Source: Deltaproteobacteria bacterium (GTDB lineage: Bacteria; Desulfobacterota; Desulfobulbia; Desulfobulbales; BM004). From it: a stretch of 26,377 bases of DNA. Below the pieces are notes generated by a model that did not search any database, had not been told where the DNA came from, and worked only from the letters and a program-made list of their open reading frames with translations. Positions 2,451 to 20,126 of the stretch are shown here, piece after piece (position 1 is the stretch's first letter; every line of letters starts with the position of its first letter). Made by a program: the position numbers and the translations under genes. The stretch covers positions 1 to 26,377 of the forward strand of contig JAFDCR010000002.1 in assembly GCA_019312685.1 (NCBI GenBank), in the 5' to 3' direction.

Positions 2451-3266
2451 TTACCAGGAATCAGCGACCTGCGGCACCTTCTCTCTTTCAAGCAAAACTA
2501 AGGCATCTTCCGAACAGGTCGGCCGACAGATGCCGCAACCGTAACAGTTGCGGACTTCGATATTACATTTCCCCAAACCACGGTCAAAGCGCACCGCATC
2601 GAAAGGGCATCGTTTCAAGCACTGGCAGCAACCCTTGCAGCGGTCATGATCTATAATCGCCACATACTCCCCTTTCCACATAACCTTGGCCAATTTCTTC
2701 CGGTACTGAAACAGGTAAGCCATGCAATCCTGGTCACAGTTGCAGACGGCCCCGATAAAAGGCGTCTGAAAGGTCCAGACACTATGGGTCAGGCCCTCGG
2801 TATCAAGATGTTTTATTTCCTTTTTTGCCTCGGCGGCAGTAATTCTGTCGAACTGACTGAAATCAGGGACATCTTTCAAAATATGGGTCGTGTCCATCCC
2901 TACTGCATAGCAGACACGTGTTTCAACACCTGAATTGATTCTGCGGCAGATGCACGGCAGGCGGACAACGGAATTCACCCCATCAAGTATATATTCTACA
3001 TCCTCAATTGGTAAAACCTGGCCGAAATGGGTCTTTTTCTGATGATGGGTGATCCATGGATAGATCAGGGAAGAATATATATACGGAATCCTTTTTTTCC
3101 ACTTTTCGGCACGAACCAGACCATCATGCAAACTCTGGGCAAAGTTGCTTAGATAATTCTTTAGTTTTTTGTCTGTACTGACCTGCAGGAACAGCTCACG
3201 GGTATAGTTGGTCATATTCCTATACCATTTCTTGCCCTCCCCATGATTTATACAGAATTCACACAT
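2451..3266 (-). CDS. Cys-rich 4Fe-4S dicluster domain protein, function unknown
   Basis: C-terminal CKGCCQCLKRCP and CYGCGICRPTC ferredoxin motifs; additional MCEFC, CICR and CNCDQDC motifs; 18 Cys in 271 aa. Confidence 0.85.
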   Translation of the reverse strand: MCEFCINHGEGKKWYRNMTNYTRELFLQVSTDKKLKNYLSNFAQSLHDGLVRAEKWKKRIPYIYSSLIYPWITHHQKKTHFGQVLPIEDVEYILDGVNSVVRLPCICRRINSGVETRVCYAVGMDTTHILKDVPDFSQFDRITAAEAKKEIKHLDTEGLTHSVWTFQTPFIGAVCNCDQDCMAYLFQYRKKLAKVMWKGEYVAIIDHDRCKGCCQCLKRCPFDAVRFDRGLGKCNIEVRNCYGCGICRPTCSEDALVLLEREKVPQVADSW

Positions 3267-3431
3267 CCTACTCTACGCCTGTTTTCCCGCTGTTTGGCGA
3301 GTTATTATCCTTTATGGTTCTCTGTGCCTCTTACCTTTCAAACAGCAACTTCAATATATTGCAACAGATTTAAAAATCACGCTTAATCCTCCAGCATAGC
3401 TGGTGAATCCCAGCCATTAGGCGGAAAAGAG

Positions 3432-3553
3432 TTGTCAGGCAGCCTATTCAAGAATCAGTTCCTGTGAAAGGCGCAGGTCCGGTAAAATGTGATACTGAAA
3501 TTGATGATCACGACCGCGCTGGTCATTACCATTATTTTCGGCTGTAAGCGCAT
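3432..3553 (-). pseudogene. Probable degraded 5' remnant of a membrane sensor gene (32-aa ORF 3455..3553 plus frameshifted continuation)
   Basis: MRLQPKIMVMTSAVVIINFSITFYRTCAF, then after a 1-nt shift QELILE*AA*Q. Both stops (TAG, TGA) are one C->T change from CAG (Q) and CGA (R). The family resemblance is from memory and unverified. Confidence 0.4.
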
Positions 3554-3723
3554 ATTCTAATTAAACTGAAAAATATGAATTGGCAACCATACGACTAACC
3601 AGCCGGAATCATATGAGCAATATTTCATCCAGGTCTTCTCATTATTTTCTATTTTATGCCGGGTTAACGGATTTTTTTACTTCAAGGCAAATATATATGG
3701 AGGGAACTAACATTGTATTATAC

Positions 3724-3752
3724 TTGTAAATTTTCCCTAAGGAAGCTAGATT
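3724..3752 (+). promoter_or_regulatory. Candidate sigma70 promoter for the amidohydrolase-ligase-ggt operon
   Basis: TTGTAA (3724-3729), 17 bp spacer, TAGATT (3747-3752); 4/6 match to each consensus box. Confidence 0.3.
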
Positions 3753-3801
3753 ATCCGGTTAACCGCTTATAGTTTATATGTTTATGTGCCTCTTAACTCT
3801 T

Positions 3802-3856
3802 TACAGGTAATAACAATACCTGTAGCAGAAGGTGAAGGAAGTATTTTTCTTCACCT
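3802..3856 (+). promoter_or_regulatory. Two tandem inverted repeats upstream of the amidohydrolase gene
   Basis: TACAGGTA-N7-TACCTGTA (3802-3824) and AGGTGAAG-N11-CTTCACCT (3830-3856), each with a perfect 8-bp stem. Confidence 0.45.
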
Positions 3857-3926
3857 GCGAATTGTATAGAAGCACATATGTTTATTTACTGTCTGCCCCA
3901 AGGCAGCGATACAGGACGCTCCTGAA

Positions 3927-5165
3927 ATGGATGAGATAAAAATTGAACAGTCGCAGTTCCTCCCGGATACACAACTGGTTGAATGGATGCGGGATATCCG
4001 CCGAACCATCCACCAATACCCGGAACTGGGGAATGAGGAACACCGGACCCAGCGCTATATCTGTGAAAAATTAAAGGAACTCAACATCCCCTTCCGGACC
4101 GAAGGTTTCCATACCGGCATAGTAGCAACAATTGATTCTTCCACTGCCGATGACACTGAGGAAAAGCCCTGTGTAGCCCTACGTGCCGACCTGGACGGGC
4201 TGCCGGTTGAGGAAAAGACCGGTCTTGCCTTTGCCTCGAAAGTTCCCGGCATCATGCATGCCTGCGGACATGACGGCCATGTGGCCATGCTCCTTGGAGC
4301 CGCCTCCATGCTGCGCCATACTGAACTTCCGGGCAGAGTGGTACTCCTTTTTCAGCCGGCTGAAGAAGACGGGGACGGCGCCCTGCATATGATTGAAGAC
4401 GGTGGTCTTGCAGGGATACAGGCTATATTTGCCGGCCATATCGACCGCCATTTTAATGTCGGCCAGATTGCCGCTGAACCGGGTCTGATCTGCGCCTATA
4501 CCGACAAATTCCAGATAAAAGTATGCGGCCGCGGCGGTCATGCGGCCCGGCCGCATGAAACCATTGACGCCATTGTGGTCGCCAGTCTGCTTGTCATGAG
4601 CATTCAGACCCTGGTATCACGTGAAATAAATCCATCCTATCCCACGGTTGTCAGTGTGGGGCGTTTCAGCGGCGGCACCGCTTATAATGTCATTGCCGAA
4701 GAGGCCATACTGGAAGGAACCATCCGGGCAACTCATCCGGATATCAGGGCCAAAATCATTGACGGACTCGAGAGGATGGTCGGGGCCATGGACGGATTAT
4801 ACAACGCCAAGACCACCATCCGCTTCCGGGGCGGTCTGCCTCCGGTTATCAATCATCCTGTTGCCGCCCAAATTGCCCGAAAGGCGGCAAAAAAGATTGT
4901 CGGCAAGGAAAGCGTTATGAAGCAGATGCATCCGAGCCTGGGTGGTGAAGATTTTTCCTACTTTCTCCAGAAGGTCCCCGGTTGTCTTGTCCGTTTCGGG
5001 GCCGGGCATCCTGATCTTCCCAATATACCGGCCCACAGCCCCTTCTTTGATTTTGACGAAGGCGTTCTGCCGATCGGCGCAGCATTTCTCGCCCAGGTAG
5101 CCCTGCAGGCCCTGCGGGACAAGGAGCTTTTTACCTGTTCGCAGGTCAGCCCCGCAATAAAGTAA
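3927..5165 (+). CDS. M20D family amidohydrolase (Acy1/hippurate-hydrolase-like)
   Basis: Motifs IHQYPELGNEE, ALRADLDGLP, MHACGHDGH, FQPAEE, GGHAARPH, GGEDFS, HSPFFDFDE; no signal peptide. Confidence 0.92.
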   Translation: MDEIKIEQSQFLPDTQLVEWMRDIRRTIHQYPELGNEEHRTQRYICEKLKELNIPFRTEGFHTGIVATIDSSTADDTEEKPCVALRADLDGLPVEEKTGLAFASKVPGIMHACGHDGHVAMLLGAASMLRHTELPGRVVLLFQPAEEDGDGALHMIEDGGLAGIQAIFAGHIDRHFNVGQIAAEPGLICAYTDKFQIKVCGRGGHAARPHETIDAIVVASLLVMSIQTLVSREINPSYPTVVSVGRFSGGTAYNVIAEEAILEGTIRATHPDIRAKIIDGLERMVGAMDGLYNAKTTIRFRGGLPPVINHPVAAQIARKAAKKIVGKESVMKQMHPSLGGEDFSYFLQKVPGCLVRFGAGHPDLPNIPAHSPFFDFDEGVLPIGAAFLAQVALQALRDKELFTCSQVSPAIK

Positions 5166-5199
5166 AAAAAACCTGACCATTGAACAGAGAGAGAAAAGG

Positions 5200-6312
5200 A
5201 TGACAGATGATAAACAGATAGAGTTTCAGACCAGCAGACCATTTACCCTGGGGGTTGAGATTGAACTCCAGGTTCTGGATAAAAATGATCTGAACCTTGT
5301 CCCCAAAGGACCTGACATCCTGGCCATGGTGCCGGCGGAACTGCAGGAGCGCATCAAAAGAGAATTCATCCGTTCCATGATCGAAATCAATACCGAAGTC
5401 TGCAGCGATATGGAACAGGTAAAGGAAAACCTGAACAATCTGATCAAAAAGGCAGAGGATCTAGCTGCGGCAAACAACTGCATTCTCTTTGCCACCAGCC
5501 TTCATCCCTTTGCCAAGTACAGCGATCAGGAACTTTCCTCGCATCCCCGCTACAGCCGTATCATGAATGACCTGCAGCTGGTAGGCAGAAGGTTCATTAC
5601 CCAGGGGCTTCATGTCCATGTCGGCATGGAGGATCATGAATCAGCCATCAGGGTATGCGACAGCATCCGTCTCTTCCTTCCCATACTTCTGGCCCTGACC
5701 TGTTCCTCGCCTTATTACGAAGGAATCGATACCGGCCTCCATTCATACAGGGCCAAGCTGTTTGAGGCCCTGCCCCTGGCCGGGATGCCCGATGAACTCG
5801 GAAGCTGGGACAAGTACATTGAGATGGTCAACCTGCTTACCAACACAGGGATAATCAGTGAGGTCCGCGATCTGTGGTGGGACGTCCGCCCGCATCCCGA
5901 CTTCGGCACCATTGAAATCCGCATCTGCGACCTGCCGTCCACCTTTAACGAGATCCTTGCCATTGTGGCCCTGATTCAGGGACTTGTGGTCAATATAACC
6001 GAATCCGACAAGCACCTGAACCCCAACATGCAGGTCCTGAAGAGCAACAAATGGCAGGCCGCCCGCTACGGCCTGGAAGGCAGGTTCGTTTACCCCCTGC
6101 TGCAGAAAAAAATATCCATGAAGGAGGCTGCCGCTGAAATATTTGCCAAGGCTGCCCCTGCAATGGAAAAACTGGGTACAAGTCATTACCTCTCTGTGCT
6201 TCAGCGGATTACCGAATCAGGGACAAGTTCGAGCCGGCAAAGAAATATCTTCAACAGGCAGAATGATTTTACCGCAATAATCAAGGAACTGTACCCGAAA
6301 TTCTGGCAATGA
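5200..6312 (+). CDS. ybdK: Glutamate--cysteine ligase family 2 (GCS2, YbdK-like carboxylate-amine ligase)
   Basis: FTLGVEIELQV, IEINT, GLHVHVG, LALTCSSPY, WWDVRPHPDFGTIEIRICD, NKWQAARYGLEG. Confidence 0.92.
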   Translation: MTDDKQIEFQTSRPFTLGVEIELQVLDKNDLNLVPKGPDILAMVPAELQERIKREFIRSMIEINTEVCSDMEQVKENLNNLIKKAEDLAAANNCILFATSLHPFAKYSDQELSSHPRYSRIMNDLQLVGRRFITQGLHVHVGMEDHESAIRVCDSIRLFLPILLALTCSSPYYEGIDTGLHSYRAKLFEALPLAGMPDELGSWDKYIEMVNLLTNTGIISEVRDLWWDVRPHPDFGTIEIRICDLPSTFNEILAIVALIQGLVVNITESDKHLNPNMQVLKSNKWQAARYGLEGRFVYPLLQKKISMKEAAAEIFAKAAPAMEKLGTSHYLSVLQRITESGTSSSRQRNIFNRQNDFTAIIKELYPKFWQ

Positions 6313-7808
6313 AAAAACTCAACAAAGCAATAGTAGCTACCGGGCATCCCCTGGTGAGCAATGCGGCCATAGAAATTTTACAACAGGGGGGCAATGCTTT
6401 TGACGCCACAGTCGGTGCGGGATTTGCAGGAGCGGTGGCGGAACAGACCCTTACCAGCCTCGGCGGCGGCGGTTTCCTGCTGGCCCGGACAAATGGAGGA
6501 AAGGAGGTCCTTTTTGACTTTTTCACTGATACCCCGGGCAGAGGGCTTGACAGCAGCGAACTTGAACCCCACTTCTTTCCGGTTACCATCCACTTCCCCG
6601 GCTCCGACCAGGATTTTAATATCGGCCTCGGTTCGGTTGCCGTGCCGGGTAACCTCAAGGGATTTCTCCATGTCCATAAACGGCTCGGCCGGCTTCCTCT
6701 CGAGGAAATCCTGCAGCCGGCAATCCATCTTGCCAGAGACGGGCTTGAACTCAACGATTGGCAGGGATATTTTCTTAATCTCCTGGAACCTATCATGACC
6801 TATTCCCCTGAGGGGAGAAAACTGTATACTATCAATGGAAAATGCGCCAAGCAGGGTGACCATATAACCAACCCTGAAATCGGTGATTTTCTCTCAAACC
6901 TGCCGGGGGATCAGGGCGAGAATTTTTATAATGGAGATCTGGCCAAAACCATTGAAAAGAATATGCGGTCCGGCCAGGGGTTGTTGACAGCTGCAGATCT
7001 CGCGGCATACCAGGTGATTGAACGCACCCCCCTTTCCATCGGTTACCGTGATTACACCCTGTTAACAAACCCGTTTCCCTCCATGGGCGGCTCTCTCATC
7101 GGCCTGGCGCTTTCCCTCCTGGAAACCCAGGATACAGCAAAGCTCAAATACCATTCACCAGCCCATGCCCTGCAGACTGCCAAGCTGATGACCGAAGTTG
7201 AATTGCTGCGCGAAAAAGGCATAAATGCAGTTTCTCTGGAACAATCCGGAGAAAGGTTGCGTCTGTTTTCCCGCGGCACAACCCATATAAGTGTTGCCGA
7301 TGGTGAAGGCAATGTCGCAAGTATGACCTGTTCAAACGGAGAAGGTTCCGGATATTTTGTTCCGGGTACCGGCATAATGCTCAATAACATGATGGGTGAG
7401 GATGATCTGCATCCGGAGGGTTTTCATGCCAGTCCTCCGGGCCAGAGGGTATCGTCCATGATGTCCCCCTCCCTGCTGCTGAAAAATGATGCGGTTGAAA
7501 TGGTCATCGGCAGCGGCGGCAGCAAACGGATACGCACTGCAATAACCCAGGTCATAAGTTCCATCGTTGATTTTAACATTCCCGTGCAGGAAGCCGTGGA
7601 AGCCCCACGCATCCACTGGGATGGCGAGATGATGCAGGTTGAACCCGGTTACTCCCAGGACGCAATTAATGTCCTTCAGAAACACTGGCCTGTTAACCTC
7701 TGGAACACCATTGACGTATACTTCGGCGGTGTCCATACCGTACTGCCCGGTATAGCCGGCGGCGGGGATCCCCGCCGGGGAGGCTCGGTAAGGGTGTTAG
7801 AAAAATAA
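6309..7808 (+). CDS. ggt: Gamma-glutamyltransferase family protein, apparently cytoplasmic
   Basis: GGNAFDA, LGGGGF, SVAVPG, autoprocessing/nucleophile Thr in GTTHISV, LNNMMG, SSMMSP, GSGGS, EAPRIH, GGGDPRRGG. No N-terminal hydrophobic signal. ATGA overlap with the ligase gene. Confidence 0.92.
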   Translation: MKKLNKAIVATGHPLVSNAAIEILQQGGNAFDATVGAGFAGAVAEQTLTSLGGGGFLLARTNGGKEVLFDFFTDTPGRGLDSSELEPHFFPVTIHFPGSDQDFNIGLGSVAVPGNLKGFLHVHKRLGRLPLEEILQPAIHLARDGLELNDWQGYFLNLLEPIMTYSPEGRKLYTINGKCAKQGDHITNPEIGDFLSNLPGDQGENFYNGDLAKTIEKNMRSGQGLLTAADLAAYQVIERTPLSIGYRDYTLLTNPFPSMGGSLIGLALSLLETQDTAKLKYHSPAHALQTAKLMTEVELLREKGINAVSLEQSGERLRLFSRGTTHISVADGEGNVASMTCSNGEGSGYFVPGTGIMLNNMMGEDDLHPEGFHASPPGQRVSSMMSPSLLLKNDAVEMVIGSGGSKRIRTAITQVISSIVDFNIPVQEAVEAPRIHWDGEMMQVEPGYSQDAINVLQKHWPVNLWNTIDVYFGGVHTVLPGIAGGGDPRRGGSVRVLEK

Positions 7809-7996
7809 TTTTGAATTTTGAGTTTTAAATTCTTAATTATAAAAATACCATCCAACCATAAAGAGGGTTGGTTGAAAGTTAACACAAGGCTTAAAGTTTA
7901 ATCAGAGCCTTTCAATTCAAAATTCAAAATTACTCTTTAAACATAACCAGTTCATTTAATTCAAAACTCATAATTCAAAATTCAAAATTACTCTTT
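7807..7996. repeat. AT-rich heptamer inverted-repeat element, copy 1 (arms separated by an insert)
   Basis: Left arm AATTTTG AATTTTG AGTTTTA AATTCTT AATT (7807-7838). Right arms of AATTCAA units at 7914-7931 and 7958-7989. Perfect 25-bp direct repeat AATTCAAAATTCAAAATTACTCTTT at 7914-7938 and 7972-7996. Confidence 0.85.
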
Positions 7997-8001
7997 CAAT
8001 T

Positions 8002-9072
8002 ATGGCTGCCTATATATTACGACGAATACTGCTGATGATCCCGACCCTTTTCGGGATCATGCTGGTCACCTTTATCGTGACCCAGTTTGTTCCCGGCGGA
8101 CCTGTTGAACGGCTGTTGGCTGAAATCGAGGGACATTCCACCACCGGACTTTCCACAGGCAAGGGGGAAGTCAGAATAATGCCGAAGGGTGACATCTACC
8201 AGGGGGCGCAGGGGCTTGATAATGAAAAAATGGAAAAGCTCCGGGCCCTCTACGGTTTTGATAAACCGCCGGCAGAGCGGTTTCTGACCATGATGAAGAA
8301 TTTCCTGGTCTTTGATTTCGGGACCAGCTACTACCACCATAAAAGTGTAGTCAGCCTGGTCATTTCAAAACTGCCGGTCTCCATGTCCCTGGGTTTATGG
8401 ACCTTTCTGATCGTCTATCTGACCTGCATCCCGCTCGGCATCTACAAAGCGGTTCACGACGGTTCCAGGGTTGATGTTATCTCAAGCACCTTTATCCTGA
8501 TCGGTTATGCCATTCCCGGGTTTGTCCTGGCCATTCTCCTTATCGTACTTTTCGGCGGCGGCAGTTTCTGGAATATCTTCCCGCTGCGTGGTCTGGTATC
8601 CGACAACTGGTCCGAACTCAGCCTTATCGGCAAGATCCTTGACTATCTCTGGCATATGGTCCTGCCGATCACTTCCAGTGCCGTCGGTTCACTTGCAGTA
8701 ATGACCCTGCTGACAAAAAACAGTTTTATTGAAGAGATTCGCAAGCAGTACGTTACAACCGCCCGGGCAAAGGGGCTAAACGAGAACCAGGTCCTATACA
8801 AACATGTGTTCAGAAACGCGATCATTCCGATCATCACAGGCTTTCCCGGTTCATTCATCACTGCGTTCTTTACCGGCAGCCTCCTGATCGAAACGATTTT
8901 CTCCCTTGACGGCATGGGACTCCTGGCCTATGAATCGGTCATGAACCGCGACTATCCAGTCGTTCTCGCCACTCTGTACTTCTTTACCATTATTGGTCTC
9001 ATTTCCAGGCTGCTCTCAGACCTGAGCTATGTACTGGTGGATCCGCGCATAACCTTTGAGAGTGTTGACTGA
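8002..9072 (+). CDS. yejB: Peptide ABC transporter permease, YejB-like
   Basis: MAAYILRRILLMIPTLFG, QFVPGGPVE, LYGFDKP, EAA-type motif TARAKGL, RDYPVV, YVLVDPRI. Confidence 0.92.
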   Translation: MAAYILRRILLMIPTLFGIMLVTFIVTQFVPGGPVERLLAEIEGHSTTGLSTGKGEVRIMPKGDIYQGAQGLDNEKMEKLRALYGFDKPPAERFLTMMKNFLVFDFGTSYYHHKSVVSLVISKLPVSMSLGLWTFLIVYLTCIPLGIYKAVHDGSRVDVISSTFILIGYAIPGFVLAILLIVLFGGGSFWNIFPLRGLVSDNWSELSLIGKILDYLWHMVLPITSSAVGSLAVMTLLTKNSFIEEIRKQYVTTARAKGLNENQVLYKHVFRNAIIPIITGFPGSFITAFFTGSLLIETIFSLDGMGLLAYESVMNRDYPVVLATLYFFTIIGLISRLLSDLSYVLVDPRITFESVD

Positions 9073-10124
9073 TGAAACAGCGGAAAAGACGAGAAAGCCT
9101 CGGAAGGAGGCGCTGGAGAAAATTCAAGTCGCATAAGCGGGGCTATTACAGTCTGCTTATCTTCAGCATACTTTTCGTTATCAGTCTGGGGGCGGAATTT
9201 ATCAGCAATGACAAACCGTTTCTTGTCTACTATGAAAATGCTTTCTACTGGCCGCTTTTCAAGTCCTACCCCGAAACCACCTTCGGGGGAGATTTTGAAA
9301 CCGAGACTGACTACAGGGATTCCTATATTCTCAAAAAAATAGAAGCAGGAGATAATTTTGCCCTCTTTCCTCTCAATCATTTCAGTTATGATACAATCAA
9401 CCTAGATCTTGACACACCGGTACCCTCCCCTCCCACCAAGGACAATATCCTGGGAACAGATGACCGGGGACGTGATGTCCTGGCGCGTCTGCTTTACGGC
9501 TTCAGACTCTCCGTGCTTTTCGGTTTTTCCTTAACCTTTGTAGGCACATCTATAGGCATTCTGGCCGGTTCCGTGCAGGGATATTTCGGCGGCAAGACAG
9601 ATCTTTTCATGCAGCGGTTTATAGAAATCTGGGGGGCCATGCCGGAATTATACCTGCTGATCATCTTCGCCTCCATATTCAAGCCATCGGTCCTGCTGCT
9701 GCTCATCCTGCTGTCCATGTTCGGCTGGATGGGCCTGTCGGATTATGTCCGGGCCGAATTCCTCAAGGGCCGGAATATGGATTATGTAACTGCCGCCAAG
9801 GCACTGGGAGTTTCCAATGTGGTCATCATGTTCCGGCACCTGCTGCCGAACGGTATGACGCCGGTCATAACCTTTCTGCCCTTCAGGCTTTCAGGTGCAA
9901 TCCTGGCGTTGACCAGCCTTGATTTTCTGGGTCTCGGCGTGCCGCCTACAACCCCAAGCCTCGGTGAGCTGCTGGCCCAGGGCAAAAGCAATATTGATGC
10001 GTGGTGGCTGTCAATATCGACCTTTGCCGTCCTGGTGGGAACGCTTATCCTGTTGATCTTCATCGGTGAAGCCCTGCGGGAAACATTTGATCCACGGAAG
10101 CTGGTGAAACAGGAGAAAAAATAA
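9072..10124 (+). CDS. yejE: Peptide ABC transporter permease, YejE-like
   Basis: RRWRKFKSHKRGYYSL, YPETTFGGDF, LGTDDRGRDVLARL, HLLPN, SLDFLGLG, FIGEALR; TGATG coupling to yejB. Confidence 0.92.
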   Translation: MKQRKRRESLGRRRWRKFKSHKRGYYSLLIFSILFVISLGAEFISNDKPFLVYYENAFYWPLFKSYPETTFGGDFETETDYRDSYILKKIEAGDNFALFPLNHFSYDTINLDLDTPVPSPPTKDNILGTDDRGRDVLARLLYGFRLSVLFGFSLTFVGTSIGILAGSVQGYFGGKTDLFMQRFIEIWGAMPELYLLIIFASIFKPSVLLLLILLSMFGWMGLSDYVRAEFLKGRNMDYVTAAKALGVSNVVIMFRHLLPNGMTPVITFLPFRLSGAILALTSLDFLGLGVPPTTPSLGELLAQGKSNIDAWWLSISTFAVLVGTLILLIFIGEALRETFDPRKLVKQEKK

Positions 10125-10203: not shown

Positions 10204-11820
10204 ATGTTGCTTGACATCAAAAATCTATCCCTCACCTTCCACACGGAGGACGGAGAAAGCAAGGTACTCAACGATGTCTCCTTTGGGGTGGACAGCGGTG
10301 AAACAGTGGCACTTGTCGGGGAATCAGGATCCGGCAAATCGGTCACGGCCCTTTCCGTCCTCCGTTTACTGGAAATGACCGCCAGCATTAGAAGCAGCGG
10401 CCAAATAAACTTTTCAGGAGAGAACATTCTTGCACTGCCGGAAGCCAGAATGAGGCATATACGCGGCAACAAAATTGCCATGATCTTTCAGGAGCCGATG
10501 ACCTCCCTCAACCCGGTTTACTCTGTCGGCAGCCAGTTAATAGAACCCCTGATGCTGCACCAGCAGCTCACCAACTCCGAATCCCAGGCAAAAGCCGTTG
10601 AACTCTTAGACAGATGCGGCATTCCTGATCCGCAACAGCGCCTGGCCAGCTTTCCCCACCAGCTGTCCGGAGGCCAGCGACAGCGGGTCATGATAGCAAT
10701 GGCCCTTGCCTGTAAACCATCCCTGCTGATTGCCGACGAACCGACTACCGCCCTTGATGTTACTATCCAGGCCCAGATACTCGAACTGCTGAAAGATATC
10801 CAGCAGGAACTCGATATGGCGGTTCTGCTGATAACACACGACTTGAACATGGTACAAAAGATATCCGACCATGTGCATATCATGCACGATGGCAGAATTG
10901 TTGAAAACGGCCCCACCGAACAAATATTCGCCAATCCGCAGGATCCTTATACCATCCATCTGCTCAACAGCGTTCCCAAGGGAGAACCTGAGCCGAAAGA
11001 AAAAAGAAAGGATCTGCTTACAATTACTGACCTGCAGTGCCATTTTCCCATCAAGGCCGGTTTCTTCAAACGCACAGTCGGCAAAATTAAAGCGGTTGAC
11101 GGAGTAAGCCTCACCATCCGGGAAGGCACAACATATGGCGTGGTCGGGGAATCGGGTTCCGGCAAGAGCACATTGGGAATGTGTATCCTGCGGCTGACAG
11201 ATTGCCAAGGAAAGATTATATATGAAGGGAATGGGACCATTCCGAAAGACCTTGTACACCAGTCCAGGGCATCGCTGCGGCCGCTGCGCAAGGAATTACA
11301 GGTCGTTTTCCAGGACCCCTTCTCCTCCCTTTCCCCGAGACTGACAATTGGGCAGATCATCAGCGAAGGCTTGAGGGTTCATAAGATAGGTAAAGACAAG
11401 AAAGACCGTCAGAGACTGGTATTAAAAACACTCCGGGAAGTCGGCCTGGATGAGGAAATGGCCGGCCGCTATCCCCACGAATTTTCCGGCGGACAGCGGC
11501 AGAGAATAGCAATCGCCCGAGCAATTGCCTTAAAACCGAAATTTCTGGTTCTTGACGAACCCACAAGCGCTCTGGATATGACAATCCAGGCCCAGATTAT
11601 TCAATTGTTAAAAAATCTGCAGCAGCGCCATGGTATAACCTATCTTTTTGTCTCCCATGACCTGCGGGTAATACGGGCGATGGCCGACGAAGTTGCAGTA
11701 ATGCAGAACGGCAAAATCGTGGAAGCCGGTCCTGCTGCCGAGGTATTCGACAATCCGCAGCATCCCTATACCAGGAGTCTCTTTACTGCAGCCTTTGAGC
11801 TGAAAGCGAGGACAGAGTAA
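10204..11820 (+). CDS. yejF: Peptide ABC transporter ATP-binding protein with two ABC domains, YejF-like
   Basis: Two Walker A motifs (GESGSGKS), two signatures (LSGGQRQR, FSGGQRQR), Walker B motifs LIADEPT and LVLDEPT. Confidence 0.93.
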   Translation: MLLDIKNLSLTFHTEDGESKVLNDVSFGVDSGETVALVGESGSGKSVTALSVLRLLEMTASIRSSGQINFSGENILALPEARMRHIRGNKIAMIFQEPMTSLNPVYSVGSQLIEPLMLHQQLTNSESQAKAVELLDRCGIPDPQQRLASFPHQLSGGQRQRVMIAMALACKPSLLIADEPTTALDVTIQAQILELLKDIQQELDMAVLLITHDLNMVQKISDHVHIMHDGRIVENGPTEQIFANPQDPYTIHLLNSVPKGEPEPKEKRKDLLTITDLQCHFPIKAGFFKRTVGKIKAVDGVSLTIREGTTYGVVGESGSGKSTLGMCILRLTDCQGKIIYEGNGTIPKDLVHQSRASLRPLRKELQVVFQDPFSSLSPRLTIGQIISEGLRVHKIGKDKKDRQRLVLKTLREVGLDEEMAGRYPHEFSGGQRQRIAIARAIALKPKFLVLDEPTSALDMTIQAQIIQLLKNLQQRHGITYLFVSHDLRVIRAMADEVAVMQNGKIVEAGPAAEVFDNPQHPYTRSLFTAAFELKARTE

Positions 11821-11857: not shown

Positions 11858-13393
11858 TTATTCCTGTTTCCAGTTGCGGATCAACTCGAGCAGAGTTCTT
11901 ACCCCAATGCCTGACGGTCCTTTGTTCGGAATGTAGGACTTTTCCGTAAAGTTATAGGCCGTGCCGGCGATATCAAGATGGGCCCAGGCGGTATCGCCGA
12001 CAAATTCCTGCAGGAATGCCGCCGCCGTTATGGTGCCCGCTGCCCGGCTGCCGATATTTTTTATGTCAGCGACCTTTGATTTTATCTGTTTGCTGTATTC
12101 TGGCCCCAGGGGAAGGCGCCAAACAGGCTCCCCGCTTCTGTTCCCGGCCTCCGTGACCTGCTGGGCCAGATCATCGTCATTGCTTAACAGGCCGGTTCTG
12201 TGATGTCCCAGGCCGATTACCACGGCGCCGGTGAGCGTAGCCAGATCGACAACCGCCTTGGGCTTATACTGCTTGATACCATACGCCAGGGCGTCAGCCA
12301 GAATAAGGCGGCCCTCGGCGTCGGTGTTGAGAACCTCCACTGTCTTACCGCCGTAGATTGTGATGATATCACCCGGCTTCAAGGCACTGGGCCCGGGCAG
12401 ATTCTCTGTAGCCGGCACGATACCGACAACATTGATTCCTTTAGGCTGTTCCTCGCCCACCGCCTGCATGGCACCGAGGACTGCAGCGCCGCCGCACATG
12501 TCGAACTTCATTTCATCCATACCCTTTGGCGGCTTGAGGCTGATGCCGCCCGAATCAAAGGTCAAACCCTTACCCACCATGAGAAGCGTCGGATTACGGG
12601 CAGAGGTCTTATATTCAAGAATTACCATCTTGGGCGGCTGGTCAGAACCGCTGTTAACGCCCAGAATGCCGCCCATTTTCAAACGCTTCATATCGGACTT
12701 GGAGAGGATTTTACAGGATAAACTGTACGTTTTTGCAAGTTTTCGTCCGTGTTCGGCAAAACGGGTCGGGGTCCAGACATTTCCAGGTTCATTTGCCATG
12801 TCTCGGGCAGCCGTTCCGGCCATTGCCGCCGCCTTTCCGGCTGACAGGCCATTGTTGACAGCACCCTTTTCCTTGAGCGAATAAAGCTGGATCTCATTAA
12901 TCCTACTCTGGGGTTCATCCTCTTCAACTGTCTTTTTATATTTCCTGAACTGATAGGCCCCCAGCAGGAGTCCTTCTGTAAGACATTCCGCCGTTTCCCT
13001 GAAGTCAAGAATAAACGGCTCCGGCATGACGGTCATAATTTTAGCGGCTTTGGTTCTCAATGCTGTTGTAGAGCCCCTGCCGCCCGCCTTCCGGTAATTC
13101 TCACGCCAGAGATCAGCACTCGTCATACCGTTTTCCTTTTTTGCCTCCTCCTTTTTTCCAAGGCCGACAACAAGAATTCTTTTAGCCTGGATTTTAGCTT
13201 TGGCTGTCGGATAAAAAAGAAGTGTCTCTCCCTCCTTGCCGACAAAATCCCCGGCTTTAAAGGCCAGTCTTACTGTATCCTGGACATATTTATTATCACA
13301 GACAGGAACCTTCTTATCCTGTTGATAAACACAATAAACAAGCATATCGCCTTTATGTTTTTCAATGTCCCGGGAAGTGTGTTTAATCAGCAT
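11858..13393 (-). CDS. pepA: Leucyl aminopeptidase (M17)
   Basis: VGKGLTFDSGG, MKFDMCGGA, NTDAEGRL, DLATLTGA, AHLDIAG. Start placed at ATG 13393 (GGAG upstream) rather than TTG 13405. Confidence 0.95.
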   Translation of the reverse strand: MLIKHTSRDIEKHKGDMLVYCVYQQDKKVPVCDNKYVQDTVRLAFKAGDFVGKEGETLLFYPTAKAKIQAKRILVVGLGKKEEAKKENGMTSADLWRENYRKAGGRGSTTALRTKAAKIMTVMPEPFILDFRETAECLTEGLLLGAYQFRKYKKTVEEDEPQSRINEIQLYSLKEKGAVNNGLSAGKAAAMAGTAARDMANEPGNVWTPTRFAEHGRKLAKTYSLSCKILSKSDMKRLKMGGILGVNSGSDQPPKMVILEYKTSARNPTLLMVGKGLTFDSGGISLKPPKGMDEMKFDMCGGAAVLGAMQAVGEEQPKGINVVGIVPATENLPGPSALKPGDIITIYGGKTVEVLNTDAEGRLILADALAYGIKQYKPKAVVDLATLTGAVVIGLGHHRTGLLSNDDDLAQQVTEAGNRSGEPVWRLPLGPEYSKQIKSKVADIKNIGSRAAGTITAAAFLQEFVGDTAWAHLDIAGTAYNFTEKSYIPNKGPSGIGVRTLLELIRNWKQE

Positions 13394-13748
13394 GTCAATC
13401 TCCAATTGTAATTATTCTTATAATGACAACCCCATAAACCGGCCTTGGCCGATAATTCCTGGACCGGTTCTTTCCCCTTTCTTCTTTGCAGTCCATTGTC
13501 TAAAATATTTTCAAATCCGTGACGGGAAAAAATAAGCCGGACTGATCCGTGAATTAAATAAATATTCAAAACTTTTATGCCCTACCCTTTTACCATAAGT
13601 TTGCATGATCTCCAATATTGATACATAGATCAAGAGAAGCGGATTTCGAGGGTTTAATAAAACCGTTTTGGCGCTATTTGTTAAATTCAATGATTAAAAA
13701 TAGAATAGATGCTCGGATAATGTTATACTCAACAAACAATACTCGATG

Positions 13749-19562: not shown

Positions 19563-20126
19563 ATGAATCAAGAAAACAGCAAAGACTGGCACAAAAGAAA
19601 AAAGGTAAACTTCGGAATTAAACGGGATCTCCAGGTATGGCTTCTTACTCGCATTGTGGGCGTATCGCTGCTGACAATTATTATTGCATGTCTTATATCA
19701 TATCTCTACGCCAAGAATGCAGTAGCGGGTGATTATCTCAGATTCCAGATCAATGTCAGAACAGTCGGTGAGGTTTTCCTGCCAATTTTTCTGACAGCTG
19801 TGCTGAGTGTCCTTGTCTCCGGCCTGGCCCTGGTATTATTCTTACCTCTCAAAATAGTCGGCCCCTTATATAGAGTTGAACAGGACCTGTTGCAGATCGC
19901 TTCCGGCGATCTTGCCAAAACCATAAAGGTCAGGTCCAATGATATCCTCAAGGAACATGCAGAGGCGGTCAACATGGCAATGGAGGAACTTGGCGGAATA
20001 ATCAAGGACATCCGGGAATCAAGCAGTAACCTTGAAACAAAAATTATGGAAGGCGATCCAAACGAGACAAAAAAGGCGTTGGAACATCATAAAAAACAAC
20101 TCGATCGAATAAGTAACAAACCGTAA
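19563..20126 (+). CDS. Two-TM HAMP-domain membrane protein with no recognisable output domain
   Basis: Two hydrophobic segments, then HAMP-like GPLYRVEQDLLQIASGDL...NDILKEHAEAVN and a short helical tail. Confidence 0.75.
   Translation: MNQENSKDWHKRKKVNFGIKRDLQVWLLTRIVGVSLLTIIIACLISYLYAKNAVAGDYLRFQINVRTVGEVFLPIFLTAVLSVLVSGLALVLFLPLKIVGPLYRVEQDLLQIASGDLAKTIKVRSNDILKEHAEAVNMAMEELGGIIKDIRESSSNLETKIMEGDPNETKKALEHHKKQLDRISNKP

What the first reader, a model, noticed from the sequence alone, without database searches (positions are those of the whole stretch)
3927..7808. Candidate uncharacterised gamma-glutamyl make-and-break module: M20D amidohydrolase, GCS2 ligase and cytoplasmic GGT
Seen: three same-strand genes with a 34-bp gap and an ATGA overlap, none with a signal peptide. 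Established: GCS2/YbdK enzymes form gamma-glutamyl amides with ATP (E. coli YbdK has only weak Cys activity, so true substrates are often unclear); GGTs remove or transfer gamma-glutamyl groups; M20D enzymes hydrolyse N-acyl amino acids or dipeptides. Inference: a self-contained cycle that glutamylates and then releases an unknown amine or amino acid. Options are a gamma-Glu-Cys-type thiol with recycling, a gamma-glutamyl protecting-group catabolic route analogous to putrescine PuuA/PuuD, or osmolyte turnover. I do not recall this trio being characterised, but cannot exclude it.
Basis: partly seen in the sequence, partly recalled or inferred. Interest (0 to 1): 0.7.

Follow-up and report, generated by a model that had tools for sequence, protein, structure and literature searches.

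The report
Conserved cytoplasmic gamma-glutamyl make-and-break gene trio
Three neighbouring genes (an amide-forming ligase and two amide-cleaving enzymes) form a module kept together across ten families of sulfur-cycling anaerobic bacteria; I found no paper describing it, it probably builds and recycles a small gamma-glutamyl peptide that is still unidentified, and several hosts are cultured, so this can be tested.

Summary
M20D amidohydrolase (3927-5165), GCS2/YbdK ligase (5200-6312) and a leaderless GGT homologue (6309-7808) lie on one strand, with a 34-nt gap and an ATGA overlap.

- **Co-occurrence:** of 401 sampled Thermodesulfobacteriota genomes, 22 in 10 families carry this ligase clade and 20 of those hold all three genes. 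Sixteen have them adjacent. Three gene orders occur.
- **Co-inheritance:** pairwise identities of the three proteins correlate at r about 0.9.
- **Gamma-glutamyl chemistry:** in one metagenomic lineage the GGT is replaced by an unrelated AIG2/GGACT-type gamma-glutamylcyclotransferase gene abutting the ligase.
- **Unusual GGT:** it keeps the catalytic Thr and the processing arginines. It has an invariant Phe where canonical GGTs have the donor-binding Arg114, and it has no lid loop.
- **No glutathione system:** GshA and GST were not found, and GshB only as weak hits.

Best reading (0.45): endogenous synthesis and controlled turnover of a gamma-glutamyl-X dipeptide. X = Cys is the leading guess and is unproven. 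Rivals are salvage of imported peptides and a protecting-group route.

The scan has flagged this trio on at least eight other genomes. I found no paper on it. I rate it a new variant of a known kind, interest 0.55.

The parts
3724..3752 (+). Promoter-like element TTGTAA-17 nt-TAGATT, 175 nt upstream of the M20D start
   Evidence: It lies within the only stretch of the 660-nt intergenic region that is conserved in relatives L002, L003, L007 and L008 (blastn; alignment A2). The consensus scan did not flag it (8 of 12 matches). A promoter function is inferred from conservation and spacing.
3927..5165 (+). M20D-family metallo-amidohydrolase (N-acyl-L-amino acid / dipeptide type), 412 aa, cytoplasmic
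   Evidence: PF01546 + PF07687; TIGR01891 at 358.6 bits against 153.75. It falls below the CpsA and DoeB2 equivalog cut-offs. Best solved relatives are ILL2, YxeP and S. aureus 4ewt. HACGHD, E146/E147, H171, H205 and H370 are invariant in 17 relatives.
5200..6312 (+). GCS2/YbdK-family ATP-dependent carboxylate-amine ligase, 370 aa
   Evidence: PF04107 positions 1-291 of 291; TIGR02050 above its cut-off; all glutamate-cysteine-ligase equivalogs below theirs. E. coli YbdK (1r8g) matches at E 1e-53. It is the only GCS2 gene in the genome. It belongs to a distinct clade whose representatives score about 257-430 bits, above a plateau of generic YbdK-like proteins at about 34% identity.
6309..7808 (+). 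Leaderless GGT-family Ntn-hydrolase homologue of a distinct subfamily (Phe72 in place of Arg114, no lid loop), 499 aa
   Evidence: PF01019. The subfamily profile matches E. coli GGT at 325 bits over the full length. Thr324, T340, S383, G404, R434 and R489 are invariant and S382 is kept in most. The 'DFF' motif is invariant where canonical GGTs of the same phylum have 'DFRE'.
8002..9072 (+). YejB-like peptide ABC permease; linked to the trio only in this order (Desulfobulbales)
   Evidence: NF011712 at 459.9 against 445. It follows the GGT in close relatives (L002, L003, L006; a partial copy in L004) and in L015, Desulfogranum mediterraneum. It is absent next to the trio in the other families.
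9072..10124 (+). YejE-like peptide ABC permease
   Evidence: NF011596 at 397 bits (below the 439 cut-off); PF00528 and OppC_N. Its start overlaps the yejB stop.
10204..11820 (+). YejF-like double ATPase of the peptide ABC transporter
   Evidence: NF011713 at 695 bits (below 834); two ABC_tran domains. No binding-protein gene is in the operon. One SBP_bac_5 gene with a 629-aa open frame lies on contig C33.

Best explanation
The three genes are one functional unit: a cytoplasmic module that makes a small gamma-glutamyl-type amide and takes it apart again.

**Proposed steps.**
- The GCS2/YbdK ligase uses ATP to join a carboxylate, most likely the gamma-carboxyl of glutamate, to the amino group of an L-amino acid X. 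This gives gamma-Glu-X. Cysteine is the leading candidate for X and is unproven.
- The leaderless GGT homologue auto-processes at Thr324. It then removes or transfers the N-terminal gamma-glutamyl-type group.
- The M20D enzyme hydrolyses an N-acyl-L-amino-acid bond. That bond could be in the ligase product itself, in a precursor that supplies X, or in a C-terminal extension.

The substrate is made inside the cell. The hydrolases set the pool size and recover the building blocks. In this order of bacteria the module is also joined to a Yej-type peptide ABC permease.

**Shown:** gene presence, family membership, retained catalytic residues, co-inheritance, and replacement of the GGT by a gamma-glutamylcyclotransferase-type gene.

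**Inferred:** Glu as the acyl donor, the identity of X, which bond each hydrolase cuts, and how a futile cycle is avoided.
For: **Linkage.**
- In a 401-genome sample of the phylum, 22 genomes in 10 families carry this ligase clade. All three genes are present in 20 of them. They are adjacent in 16; in the other 4, M20D and the ligase are adjacent and the same GGT subfamily sits on another contig.
- The GGT subfamily was found in only 3 genomes that lack the ligase.
- Three gene orders occur: M20D-GCS2-GGT, GCS2-GGT-M20D and GCS2-M20D-GGT.
- No other neighbour is conserved.
- Pairwise identities of the three proteins correlate at r = 0.89-0.92 over 10 loci.

**Chemistry.**
- In contigs L048, L049 and L050 a ligase 49% identical is abutted by a PF06094 GGACT/AIG2 gene instead of a GGT.
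- M20D-GCS2 pairs extend to ligases of 33-38% identity.

**Competent enzymes.** Catalytic and metal-binding residues are invariant in all three families.

**Endogenous substrate.**
- Most lineages have no transporter next to the trio.
- One host, Thermodesulfatator indicus, is a chemolithoautotroph (my own knowledge).
- No other glutamate-cysteine ligase (PF04262) is present.
Against: - A ligase and two hydrolases acting on the same bond in one compartment would waste ATP. No regulator or riboswitch was found.
- The GGT subfamily has an invariant Phe where Arg114 binds the donor alpha-carboxylate. The lab mutants EcGGT R114L and BlGGT R109F have no detectable activity (PMC8062742). The donor may therefore not be an ordinary L-gamma-glutamyl group.
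- Two genomes of family f26 (95% and 91% complete) keep M20D-GGT with no GCS2 gene, so the hydrolases can have a substrate without this ligase.
- GST was not found, and glutaredoxin only in 2 of 5 module genomes. A thiol-buffer role therefore has no visible client enzymes.
- The ligase scores below every glutamate-cysteine-ligase equivalog cut-off.
Confidence: 0.45

Rival explanations
1. Salvage of imported gamma-glutamyl peptides. A glutathione-like tripeptide, or other gamma-Glu-X(-Y) peptides, enter through the Yej-type ABC system. The GGT homologue removes the gamma-glutamyl group and the M20D enzyme splits the remaining dipeptide or N-acyl amino acid. The ligase re-captures a released amino acid (for example Cys as gamma-Glu-Cys).
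For: - M20D-GGT pairs exist with no ligase in the genome (f26). This fits a two-hydrolase catabolic core.
- In the window's close relatives and in Desulfogranum mediterraneum the trio is directly followed by yejB and yejE.
- The genome has one unlinked binding-protein gene of YejA size.
- A leucyl aminopeptidase gene lies convergent to the operon here and in relative L003.
Against: - The transporter link is confined to one order. Loci from the other eight families sampled show no transporter beside the trio.
- The ligase is present in 22 of 25 genomes that carry the GGT subfamily.
- GGACT-GCS2 pairs have neither M20D nor a transporter nearby.
- Autotrophic vent hosts have little reason to depend on exogenous peptides (my own knowledge).
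- Phe72 argues against glutathione as an ordinary donor.
Confidence: 0.2
2. A gamma-glutamyl protecting-group or carrier route. The ligase masks an amine with glutamate. Unlinked enzymes modify the masked intermediate. The GGT (or GGACT) and M20D enzymes then remove the mask, as in the Puu pathway or in butirosin biosynthesis (BtrJ/BtrG).
For: - Pairing the ligase with an AIG2-type cyclotransferase gene mirrors BtrJ/BtrG (my own knowledge).
- A non-canonical donor pocket in the GGT would suit a modified gamma-glutamyl conjugate.
- This route avoids a futile cycle.
Against: - No oxidoreductase, transferase or other modifying gene is conserved beside the trio in any of 20 distant loci.
- The module is self-contained in very different genomic contexts.
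Confidence: 0.15
3. Recycling of cell-wall peptides. YejBEF-type permeases import muropeptides. The GGT and M20D enzymes cleave the gamma-D-Glu-meso-diaminopimelate and neighbouring bonds of the stem peptide. The ligase re-uses a fragment.
For: - YejBEF with an unlinked binding protein (YepA) imports muropeptides in Agrobacterium (PMC9790009; title and abstract seen).
- This operon likewise has no binding-protein gene.
- A D-configured or N-blocked glutamyl donor could explain the loss of Arg114 (inference).
Against: - The Yej link is lineage-restricted.
- The GGT mechanism needs a free alpha-amino group, and the conserved acidic residue E364 is retained. The stem-peptide glutamate is N-acylated by L-Ala.
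- No other peptidoglycan-recycling gene is nearby.
Confidence: 0.05
4. No joint function: three ordinary housekeeping enzymes that happen to be neighbours.
For: Each family is large and each enzyme could act alone. One genome lacks the M20D and one lacks the GGT.
Against: - All three genes are present in 20 of the 22 genomes with this ligase clade, across 10 families.
- Three gene orders occur, with frequent start/stop overlaps.
- Divergence of the three proteins is correlated.
- The GGT belongs to a subfamily that is specific to the trio.
Confidence: 0.03

Closest known systems
Gamma-glutamyl cycle / glutathione turnover (glutamate-cysteine ligase, GGT, Cys-Gly dipeptidase; yeast DUG pathway with the M20 peptidase Dug1)
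   Same: It uses the same three enzyme activities in principle: an ATP-dependent gamma-glutamyl ligase, a gamma-glutamyl-removing Ntn hydrolase and a metallo-dipeptidase.
   Different: - All three enzymes are cytoplasmic and encoded in one operon.
- GshA and GST were not found, and GshB only as weak hits, in module genomes.
- The GGT lacks the donor-binding Arg.
- The peptidase is M20D, not M20A.
- The substrate is unknown.
E. coli YbdK (PDB 1r8g), a carboxylate-amine ligase with weak gamma-Glu-Cys ligase activity
   Same: Same Pfam family and NCBIfam subfamily, and a full-length match at E 1e-53.
   Different: - The trio ligase scores 285.5 bits on the model NF010040, whose cut-off is 425.
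- Generic YbdK-like relatives of the window ligase, at about 34-36% identity, stand alone or beside MFS transporter genes.
- The trio ligases form a separate clade that is always tied to hydrolase genes.
Intracellular, lid-loop-negative GGTs of Bacillus and of extremophiles (Geobacillus, Thermus, Deinococcus, Thermoplasma), and YwrD
   Same: Some of these have no signal peptide and all have no lid loop, and their physiological roles are unassigned (PMC8062742). The autoprocessing Thr is kept.
   Different: - The trio profile matches E. coli GGT (325 bits) and B. licheniformis GGT (300 bits) better than the B. halodurans 2nlz chain (208 bits) or the Thermoplasma 2i3o chain (165 bits).
- The 'DFF' motif with Phe for Arg114 is invariant in this subfamily. 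It is absent from the other GGTs of the same phylum that I aligned.
E. coli Puu pathway (PuuA / PuuD) and butirosin BtrJ / BtrG gamma-glutamyl protecting groups
   Same: They share the logic of adding glutamate with ATP and removing it later. BtrG is an AIG2-type cyclotransferase, like the gene that replaces the GGT in L048-L050 (pathway details from my own knowledge).
   Different: - The enzyme families differ: PuuA is glutamine-synthetase-like, PuuD is a class I amidotransferase-type hydrolase and BtrJ is an ATP-grasp enzyme.
- No modifying enzymes are conserved beside the trio.
YejABEF peptide / microcin C importer, and YejBEF-YepA muropeptide importer
   Same: The YejB model is passed above its cut-off. 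YejE and YejF are the best-scoring families. The binding protein is unlinked, as with YepA.
   Different: - YejE and YejF score below their cut-offs.
- The substrate is unknown.
- Linkage to the trio is seen only in Desulfobulbales.

Membership tests
GGT / MEROPS T03 (PF01019) | Sequence membership over the full length | tested here: met
   PF01019 at E 3e-98. TIGR00066 at 358.0 against a cut-off of 357.85, only just above it. The subfamily profile matches E. coli GGT at 325 bits over profile positions 3-502.
GGT / MEROPS T03 (PF01019) | N-terminal nucleophile Thr at the autoprocessing site (Ec T391), plus the processing arginines (Ec R513, R571) | tested here: met
   Thr324-Thr325, R434 and R489 are invariant in 14 relatives. 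Thr324 aligns with the first residue of the solved small subunits. The residue roles come from PMC8062742 and from my own numbering of the E. coli sequence.
GGT / MEROPS T03 (PF01019) | Arg that binds the donor alpha-carboxylate (Ec R114, Bs R113, Bl R109) | tested here: not met
   Phe72 is invariant in the motif 'DFF' in all 16 trio- or M20D-linked sequences. Five canonical GGTs of the same phylum read 'D[FY]RE.AP'. The same pairing appears in the HMMER alignments to E. coli and H. pylori GGT.
GGT / MEROPS T03 (PF01019) | Remaining donor pocket and oxyanion hole (Ec N411, Q430, D433, S462, S463, G483, G484) | tested here: inconclusive
   - S382 and S383 are kept (S383 is invariant).
- G404 is kept, but the second Gly is Ser405.
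- D433 aligns with the invariant Glu364.
- Q430 aligns with Met.
- The N411 position is Ser or Asn.

All. There were no coordinates to check the geometry.
GGT / MEROPS T03 (PF01019) | Hydrolysis or transfer of gamma-glutamyl groups | not testable with these tools
   This needs an enzyme assay.
GCS2 / YbdK carboxylate-amine ligases (PF04107) | Sequence membership over the full length | tested here: met
   PF04107 positions 1-291 of 291 at E 8.6e-52. TIGR02050 at 290.4 against 176.4. 1r8g matches at E 1e-53.
Glutamate-cysteine ligase equivalogs within GCS2 (NF010043, NF010042, NF010044, NF010045, TIGR02048) | Score above the curated equivalog cut-off | tested here: not met
   The best score is 339.5 against a cut-off of 409. 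NF010045 scores 218.3 against 395. The cyanobacterial gshA model scores 93.6 against 249.
M20D amidohydrolases (TIGR01891; PF01546 + PF07687) | Sequence membership and conserved metal-binding and catalytic residues | tested here: met
   TIGR01891 at 358.6 against 153.75. C113, H115, E146, E147, H171 and H370 are invariant in 17 relatives. Assigning these residues as metal ligands rests on my own knowledge of YxeP and ILL2 structures.
M20D equivalogs CpsA carboxypeptidase / DoeB2 deacetylase | Score above the equivalog cut-off | tested here: not met
   349.1 against 500, and 315.2 against 550.
Glutathione system | GshA, GshB and glutathione-dependent enzymes in the same genomes | tested here: not met
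   - PF04262: 0 of 5 genomes.
- PF02955: only 23-28-bit hits in 3 of 5 genomes. This model also matches control genomes that I do not expect to make glutathione, such as B. subtilis and M. jannaschii (my own knowledge).
- GST_N_3: nothing above the cut-off.
- Glutaredoxin: 2 of 5 genomes.

G000 is only 73% complete. The other four genomes in each search are 95-100% complete.
YejABEF-type peptide ABC transporter | Four components YejA, B, E and F | tested here: inconclusive
   YejB is above its cut-off (459.9 against 445). YejE (397 against 439) and YejF (695 against 834) are below theirs. No binding-protein gene is in the operon. One SBP_bac_5 gene lies on contig C33.

The most novel reading that the evidence does not exclude
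The trio makes and recycles a so-far undescribed low-molecular-weight gamma-glutamyl compound. This could be a gamma-Glu-Cys-type thiol serving as cytoplasmic thiol buffer or sulfur (persulfide) carrier in sulfate-reducing and sulfur-disproportionating Thermodesulfobacteriota in which I found no glutathione system. The Phe-for-Arg GGT subfamily would then be a new specificity class that recognises a non-canonical donor, such as one that is alpha-modified, D-configured or lacks the alpha-carboxylate.
Probability: 0.2. Interest if true: 0.8.

Novelty: new variant of a known kind. Interest (0 to 1): 0.55.

Why it matters
**An open question becomes testable.** The physiological role of YbdK-type ligases has been unclear since the 2004 E. 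coli structure, and so has the role of intracellular GGTs. Here both are locked into one conserved module. That gives a defined context for finding their real substrates.

**The hosts matter.** They are anaerobic sulfur-cycling bacteria in which I found no recognisable glutathione system. A gamma-glutamyl thiol or peptide made by this module would fill a gap in what is known of their redox or sulfur-carrier chemistry.

**It can be tested directly.** Hosts named by their protein records include cultured species: Thermodesulfatator indicus DSM 15286, Desulfogranum mediterraneum, Thermosulfuriphilus ammonigenes and Desulfolithobacter dissulfuricans. Dissulfuribacter thermophilus is named from a metagenome-assembled record.

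**Enzymology.** The natural Arg-to-Phe change in the GGT donor pocket is of interest, because the same change abolishes detectable activity in Bacillus licheniformis GGT.

Tried and rejected
- **Rfam.** Nothing reached gathering thresholds on the whole window. At E up to 1 on 3200-4000 there was only a chance-level sRNA match. No riboswitch clue to the metabolite.
- **Conserved neighbours in 20 distant loci.** None beyond the trio. The recurring genes of family f10 gave no functional lead. Judged from their N-terminal sequences they look like histidine-biosynthesis and murA genes (not scanned).
- **Neighbours of the unlinked GGT (f96) and of the M20D-GGT pair (f26).** Flagellin, FolE2, an acyltransferase and others; nothing informative.
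- **The 895-aa open frame in G282.** This is a GGT with a spurious high-GC N-terminal extension, not a fusion.
- **ESM Atlas feature search.** It returned only generic GGT and YbdK clusters.
- **Literature.** No paper on the trio. Recent YbdK mentions are incidental. Two sulfur-disproportionation genomics papers do not mention these genes.
- **Sequencing runs.** No RNA holder is listed, and the DNA holders carry small shares of the words. Co-transcription is untested.
- **Complex prediction and structure prediction.** Not run. I make no binding claim, and the tools return no coordinates, so the pocket around Phe72 could not be inspected.
- **Placing the ligase against named EgtA or haloarchaeal GshA sequences.** Not possible, because those sequences could not be fetched. 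NCBIfam scores served as a proxy.

Full report
**1. The observation**

The window is contig C2 of a 2.0-Mb, 73%-complete metagenome-assembled genome. Its nearest public relatives are Desulfobulbales / Thermodesulfobacteriota MAGs.

The ORF list gives three + strand frames at 3927-5165, 5200-6312 and 6309-7808. The 34-nt spacer carries a purine-rich ribosome-binding stretch. The ligase stop and the GGT start overlap as ATGA.

Pfam and NCBIfam assign the three proteins as follows:
- an M20D amidohydrolase (TIGR01891, 358.6 against 153.75);
- a YbdK-family carboxylate-amine ligase (PF04107 end to end; TIGR02050, 290.4 against 176.4);
- a GGT (PF01019; TIGR00066, 358.0 against 357.85).

None has a signal peptide. 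The GGT begins directly in the conserved domain: its residue 7 aligns with residue 25 of the E. coli GGT chain in structure 2e0w.

The same strand continues with yejB, yejE and yejF-like genes for a peptide ABC transporter, with no binding-protein gene. A leucyl aminopeptidase gene lies convergent.

Upstream is a 660-nt AT-rich intergenic region. Only about 50 nt of it is conserved in relatives, and that stretch contains TTGTAA-17 nt-TAGATT at 3724-3752. I read this as the operon promoter.

**2. Is the trio a unit?**

Close relatives at 77-87% identity keep M20D-GCS2-GGT-yejBEF, but at that distance synteny says little. I therefore sampled 401 genomes of the phylum.

- **Ligase clade:** it occurs in 22 genomes from 10 families. 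One further hit is a distant paralogue at 28% identity.
- **Adjacency:** I fetched 20 of these loci. M20D and GGT homologues lie beside the ligase in most of them, and no other gene family is conserved around it.
- **GGT across the same 401 genomes:** the four family-f96 genomes with only M20D-GCS2 adjacent carry the same GGT subfamily (54-56% identity) on another contig.
- **Tally:** 16 genomes have the trio adjacent and 4 have all three with the GGT unlinked. One (G313, 100% complete) lacks the M20D. One (G192) lacks the GGT and has an in-frame stop in its M20D.
- **GGT subfamily without the ligase:** found in only 3 genomes. Two of them (family f26) have an overlapping M20D-GGT pair and no GCS2 gene at all.

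Three gene orders occur: M20D-GCS2-GGT, GCS2-GGT-M20D and GCS2-M20D-GGT. Pairwise identities of the three proteins across 10 loci correlate at r = 0.89-0.92.

Related genomes are not independent samples. Even so, linkage that survives rearrangement in ten families, together with retention of the GGT when unlinked, is strong evidence for a shared function.

**3. Limits of the clade and a telling replacement**

An exhaustive search of 1.84 billion cluster representatives shows a distinct ligase clade at about 257-430 bits. Below it lies a plateau of generic YbdK-like proteins at about 34% identity.

- Two members of the distinct clade, looked up on contigs, carry the trio or the M20D pair.
- Two plateau members stand alone beside MFS transporter genes.
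- Among 80 metagenomic loci, further M20D-GCS2 pairs appear at 33-38% ligase identity.
- Three contigs (L048-L050) carry a ligase 49% identical to the window's. There the gene abutting the ligase start is a PF06094 GGACT/AIG2-type gamma-glutamylcyclotransferase homologue. No GGT or M20D lies within those contigs.

A structurally unrelated enzyme that breaks the same kind of bond has taken the GGT's place. This is the best available evidence that the ligase product carries a gamma-glutamyl-type amide. Earlier notes of this scan report GCS2-M20-ChaC-like clusters in Actinomycetota. I did not test those.

**4. The enzymes**

*Ligase.* The conserved acidic, His and Arg positions of the family are invariant in 16 relatives. 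It scores below every glutamate-cysteine-ligase equivalog cut-off.

*M20D.* HACGHD, E146/E147, H171 and H370 are invariant. Its best solved relatives are N-acyl-amino-acid hydrolases and a dipeptidase.

*GGT homologue.* It belongs to a distinct subfamily.
- Kept: Thr324 (nucleophile), T340, the Ser-Ser motif, one oxyanion Gly, and the two arginines needed for autoprocessing.
- Changed: an invariant Phe72 ('DFF') stands where canonical GGTs have 'DFRE'. Met replaces Gln430, and Glu364 replaces Asp433.
- Missing: the lid loop.

Five canonical, leader-bearing GGTs from the same phylum keep the Arg and the lid loop. According to a 2021 review, this Arg binds the donor alpha-carboxylate, and EcGGT R114L and BlGGT R109F have no detectable activity (PMC8062742).

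The trio GGT is therefore probably an active Ntn hydrolase whose donor recognition differs from textbook GGT.

**5. Cellular context**

In five module genomes I found no GshA and only weak ATP-grasp hits to the GshB model. There was no GST above the cut-off, and glutaredoxin in two of five. So there is no recognisable glutathione system, and the trio ligase is the only glutamate-cysteine-ligase-like enzyme.

The Yej link is confined to Desulfobulbales, that is the window's close relatives and Desulfogranum mediterraneum. A YejA-sized binding-protein gene lies elsewhere in the genome.

Hosts named by their records are Thermodesulfatator indicus DSM 15286, Desulfogranum mediterraneum, Thermosulfuriphilus ammonigenes, Dissulfuribacter thermophilus (from a MAG record) and Desulfolithobacter dissulfuricans.

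**6. Explanation and rivals**

*Best reading (0.45).* Endogenous ATP-dependent synthesis of a gamma-glutamyl-X compound, with dedicated turnover by the GGT homologue and the M20D enzyme. X = Cys is the leading guess and is unproven.

Points in favour:
- The ligase accompanies the hydrolases in 22 of 25 genomes.
- The ligase-cyclotransferase pair stands alone, without M20D or a transporter.
- Most lineages have no transporter beside the trio.
- At least one host is an autotroph (my own knowledge).

Points against:
- The futile-cycle problem.
- Phe72 in the GGT.
- The ligase-less f26 pair.
- The absence of visible thiol-dependent client enzymes.

*Rivals.*
- Salvage of imported gamma-glutamyl peptides (0.2).
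- A protecting-group route with unlinked modifying steps (0.15).
- Cell-wall peptide recycling, by analogy with YejBEF-YepA (0.05; PMC9790009).
- Chance neighbourhood (0.03).

**7. Novelty**

The families are known, and the logic resembles the gamma-glutamyl cycle. In the libraries I searched I found no description of this operon, of its ligase clade or of the Phe72 GGT subfamily.

The scan itself has noted the same trio on at least eight other genomes. One follow-up there called it an independent module. This window adds little that is unique beyond the Yej fusion.

I rate it a new variant of a known kind. It is moderately interesting, and it is directly testable in cultured hosts.

Noticed in passing
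window 7809-8001: The AT-rich GGT-yejB spacer holds a 25-nt direct repeat, AATTCAAAATTCAAAATTACTCTTT, at 7914-7938 and again at 7972-7996. The second copy ends 5 nt before the yejB ATG. This overlaps another first-reader note on heptamer hairpin elements.
   Followed up: no
window 3800-3926: The leader between the conserved promoter-like element and the M20D start is about 100 nt longer than in relatives. It contains two hairpin-forming inverted repeats, at about 3803-3823 and 3831-3855. No Rfam family matches.
   Followed up: partly
window 11858-13405 (-); L042 12432-13886; L043 336-1595: A leucyl aminopeptidase (M17) gene lies convergent to the operon here and in relative L003. M17 homologues also lie about 3 kb from the unlinked GGT in two f96 genomes. 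M17 peptidases can cleave Cys-Gly (my own knowledge). The recurrence may be chance.
   Followed up: partly
L048 789-1196, L050 1255-1662, L049 3-263: An AIG2/GGACT-type gamma-glutamylcyclotransferase homologue (YGSNL motif) abuts the start of a ligase 49% identical to the window's. It sits in the GGT's place.
   Followed up: yes
G192:C4:36098-37255 and G361:C29:15450-16967: In G192, the genome that lacks the GGT, the M20D has an in-frame TAA. The GGT of G361 has an in-frame TGA. These could be decay, sequencing errors or recoding.
   Followed up: no
L039 6775-9580 and L040: Family f26 genomes carry an overlapping M20D-GGT pair of the same subfamilies but have no GCS2 gene in the genome.
   Followed up: partly
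window 2451-3266 (-): The divergent 271-aa gene has a C-terminal 2x[4Fe-4S] ferredoxin domain and an N-terminal part of about 190 aa with no family match. It is not conserved beside the trio in relatives.
   Followed up: no
window 19563-20126 (+): A 187-aa ORF has no Pfam match.
   Followed up: no
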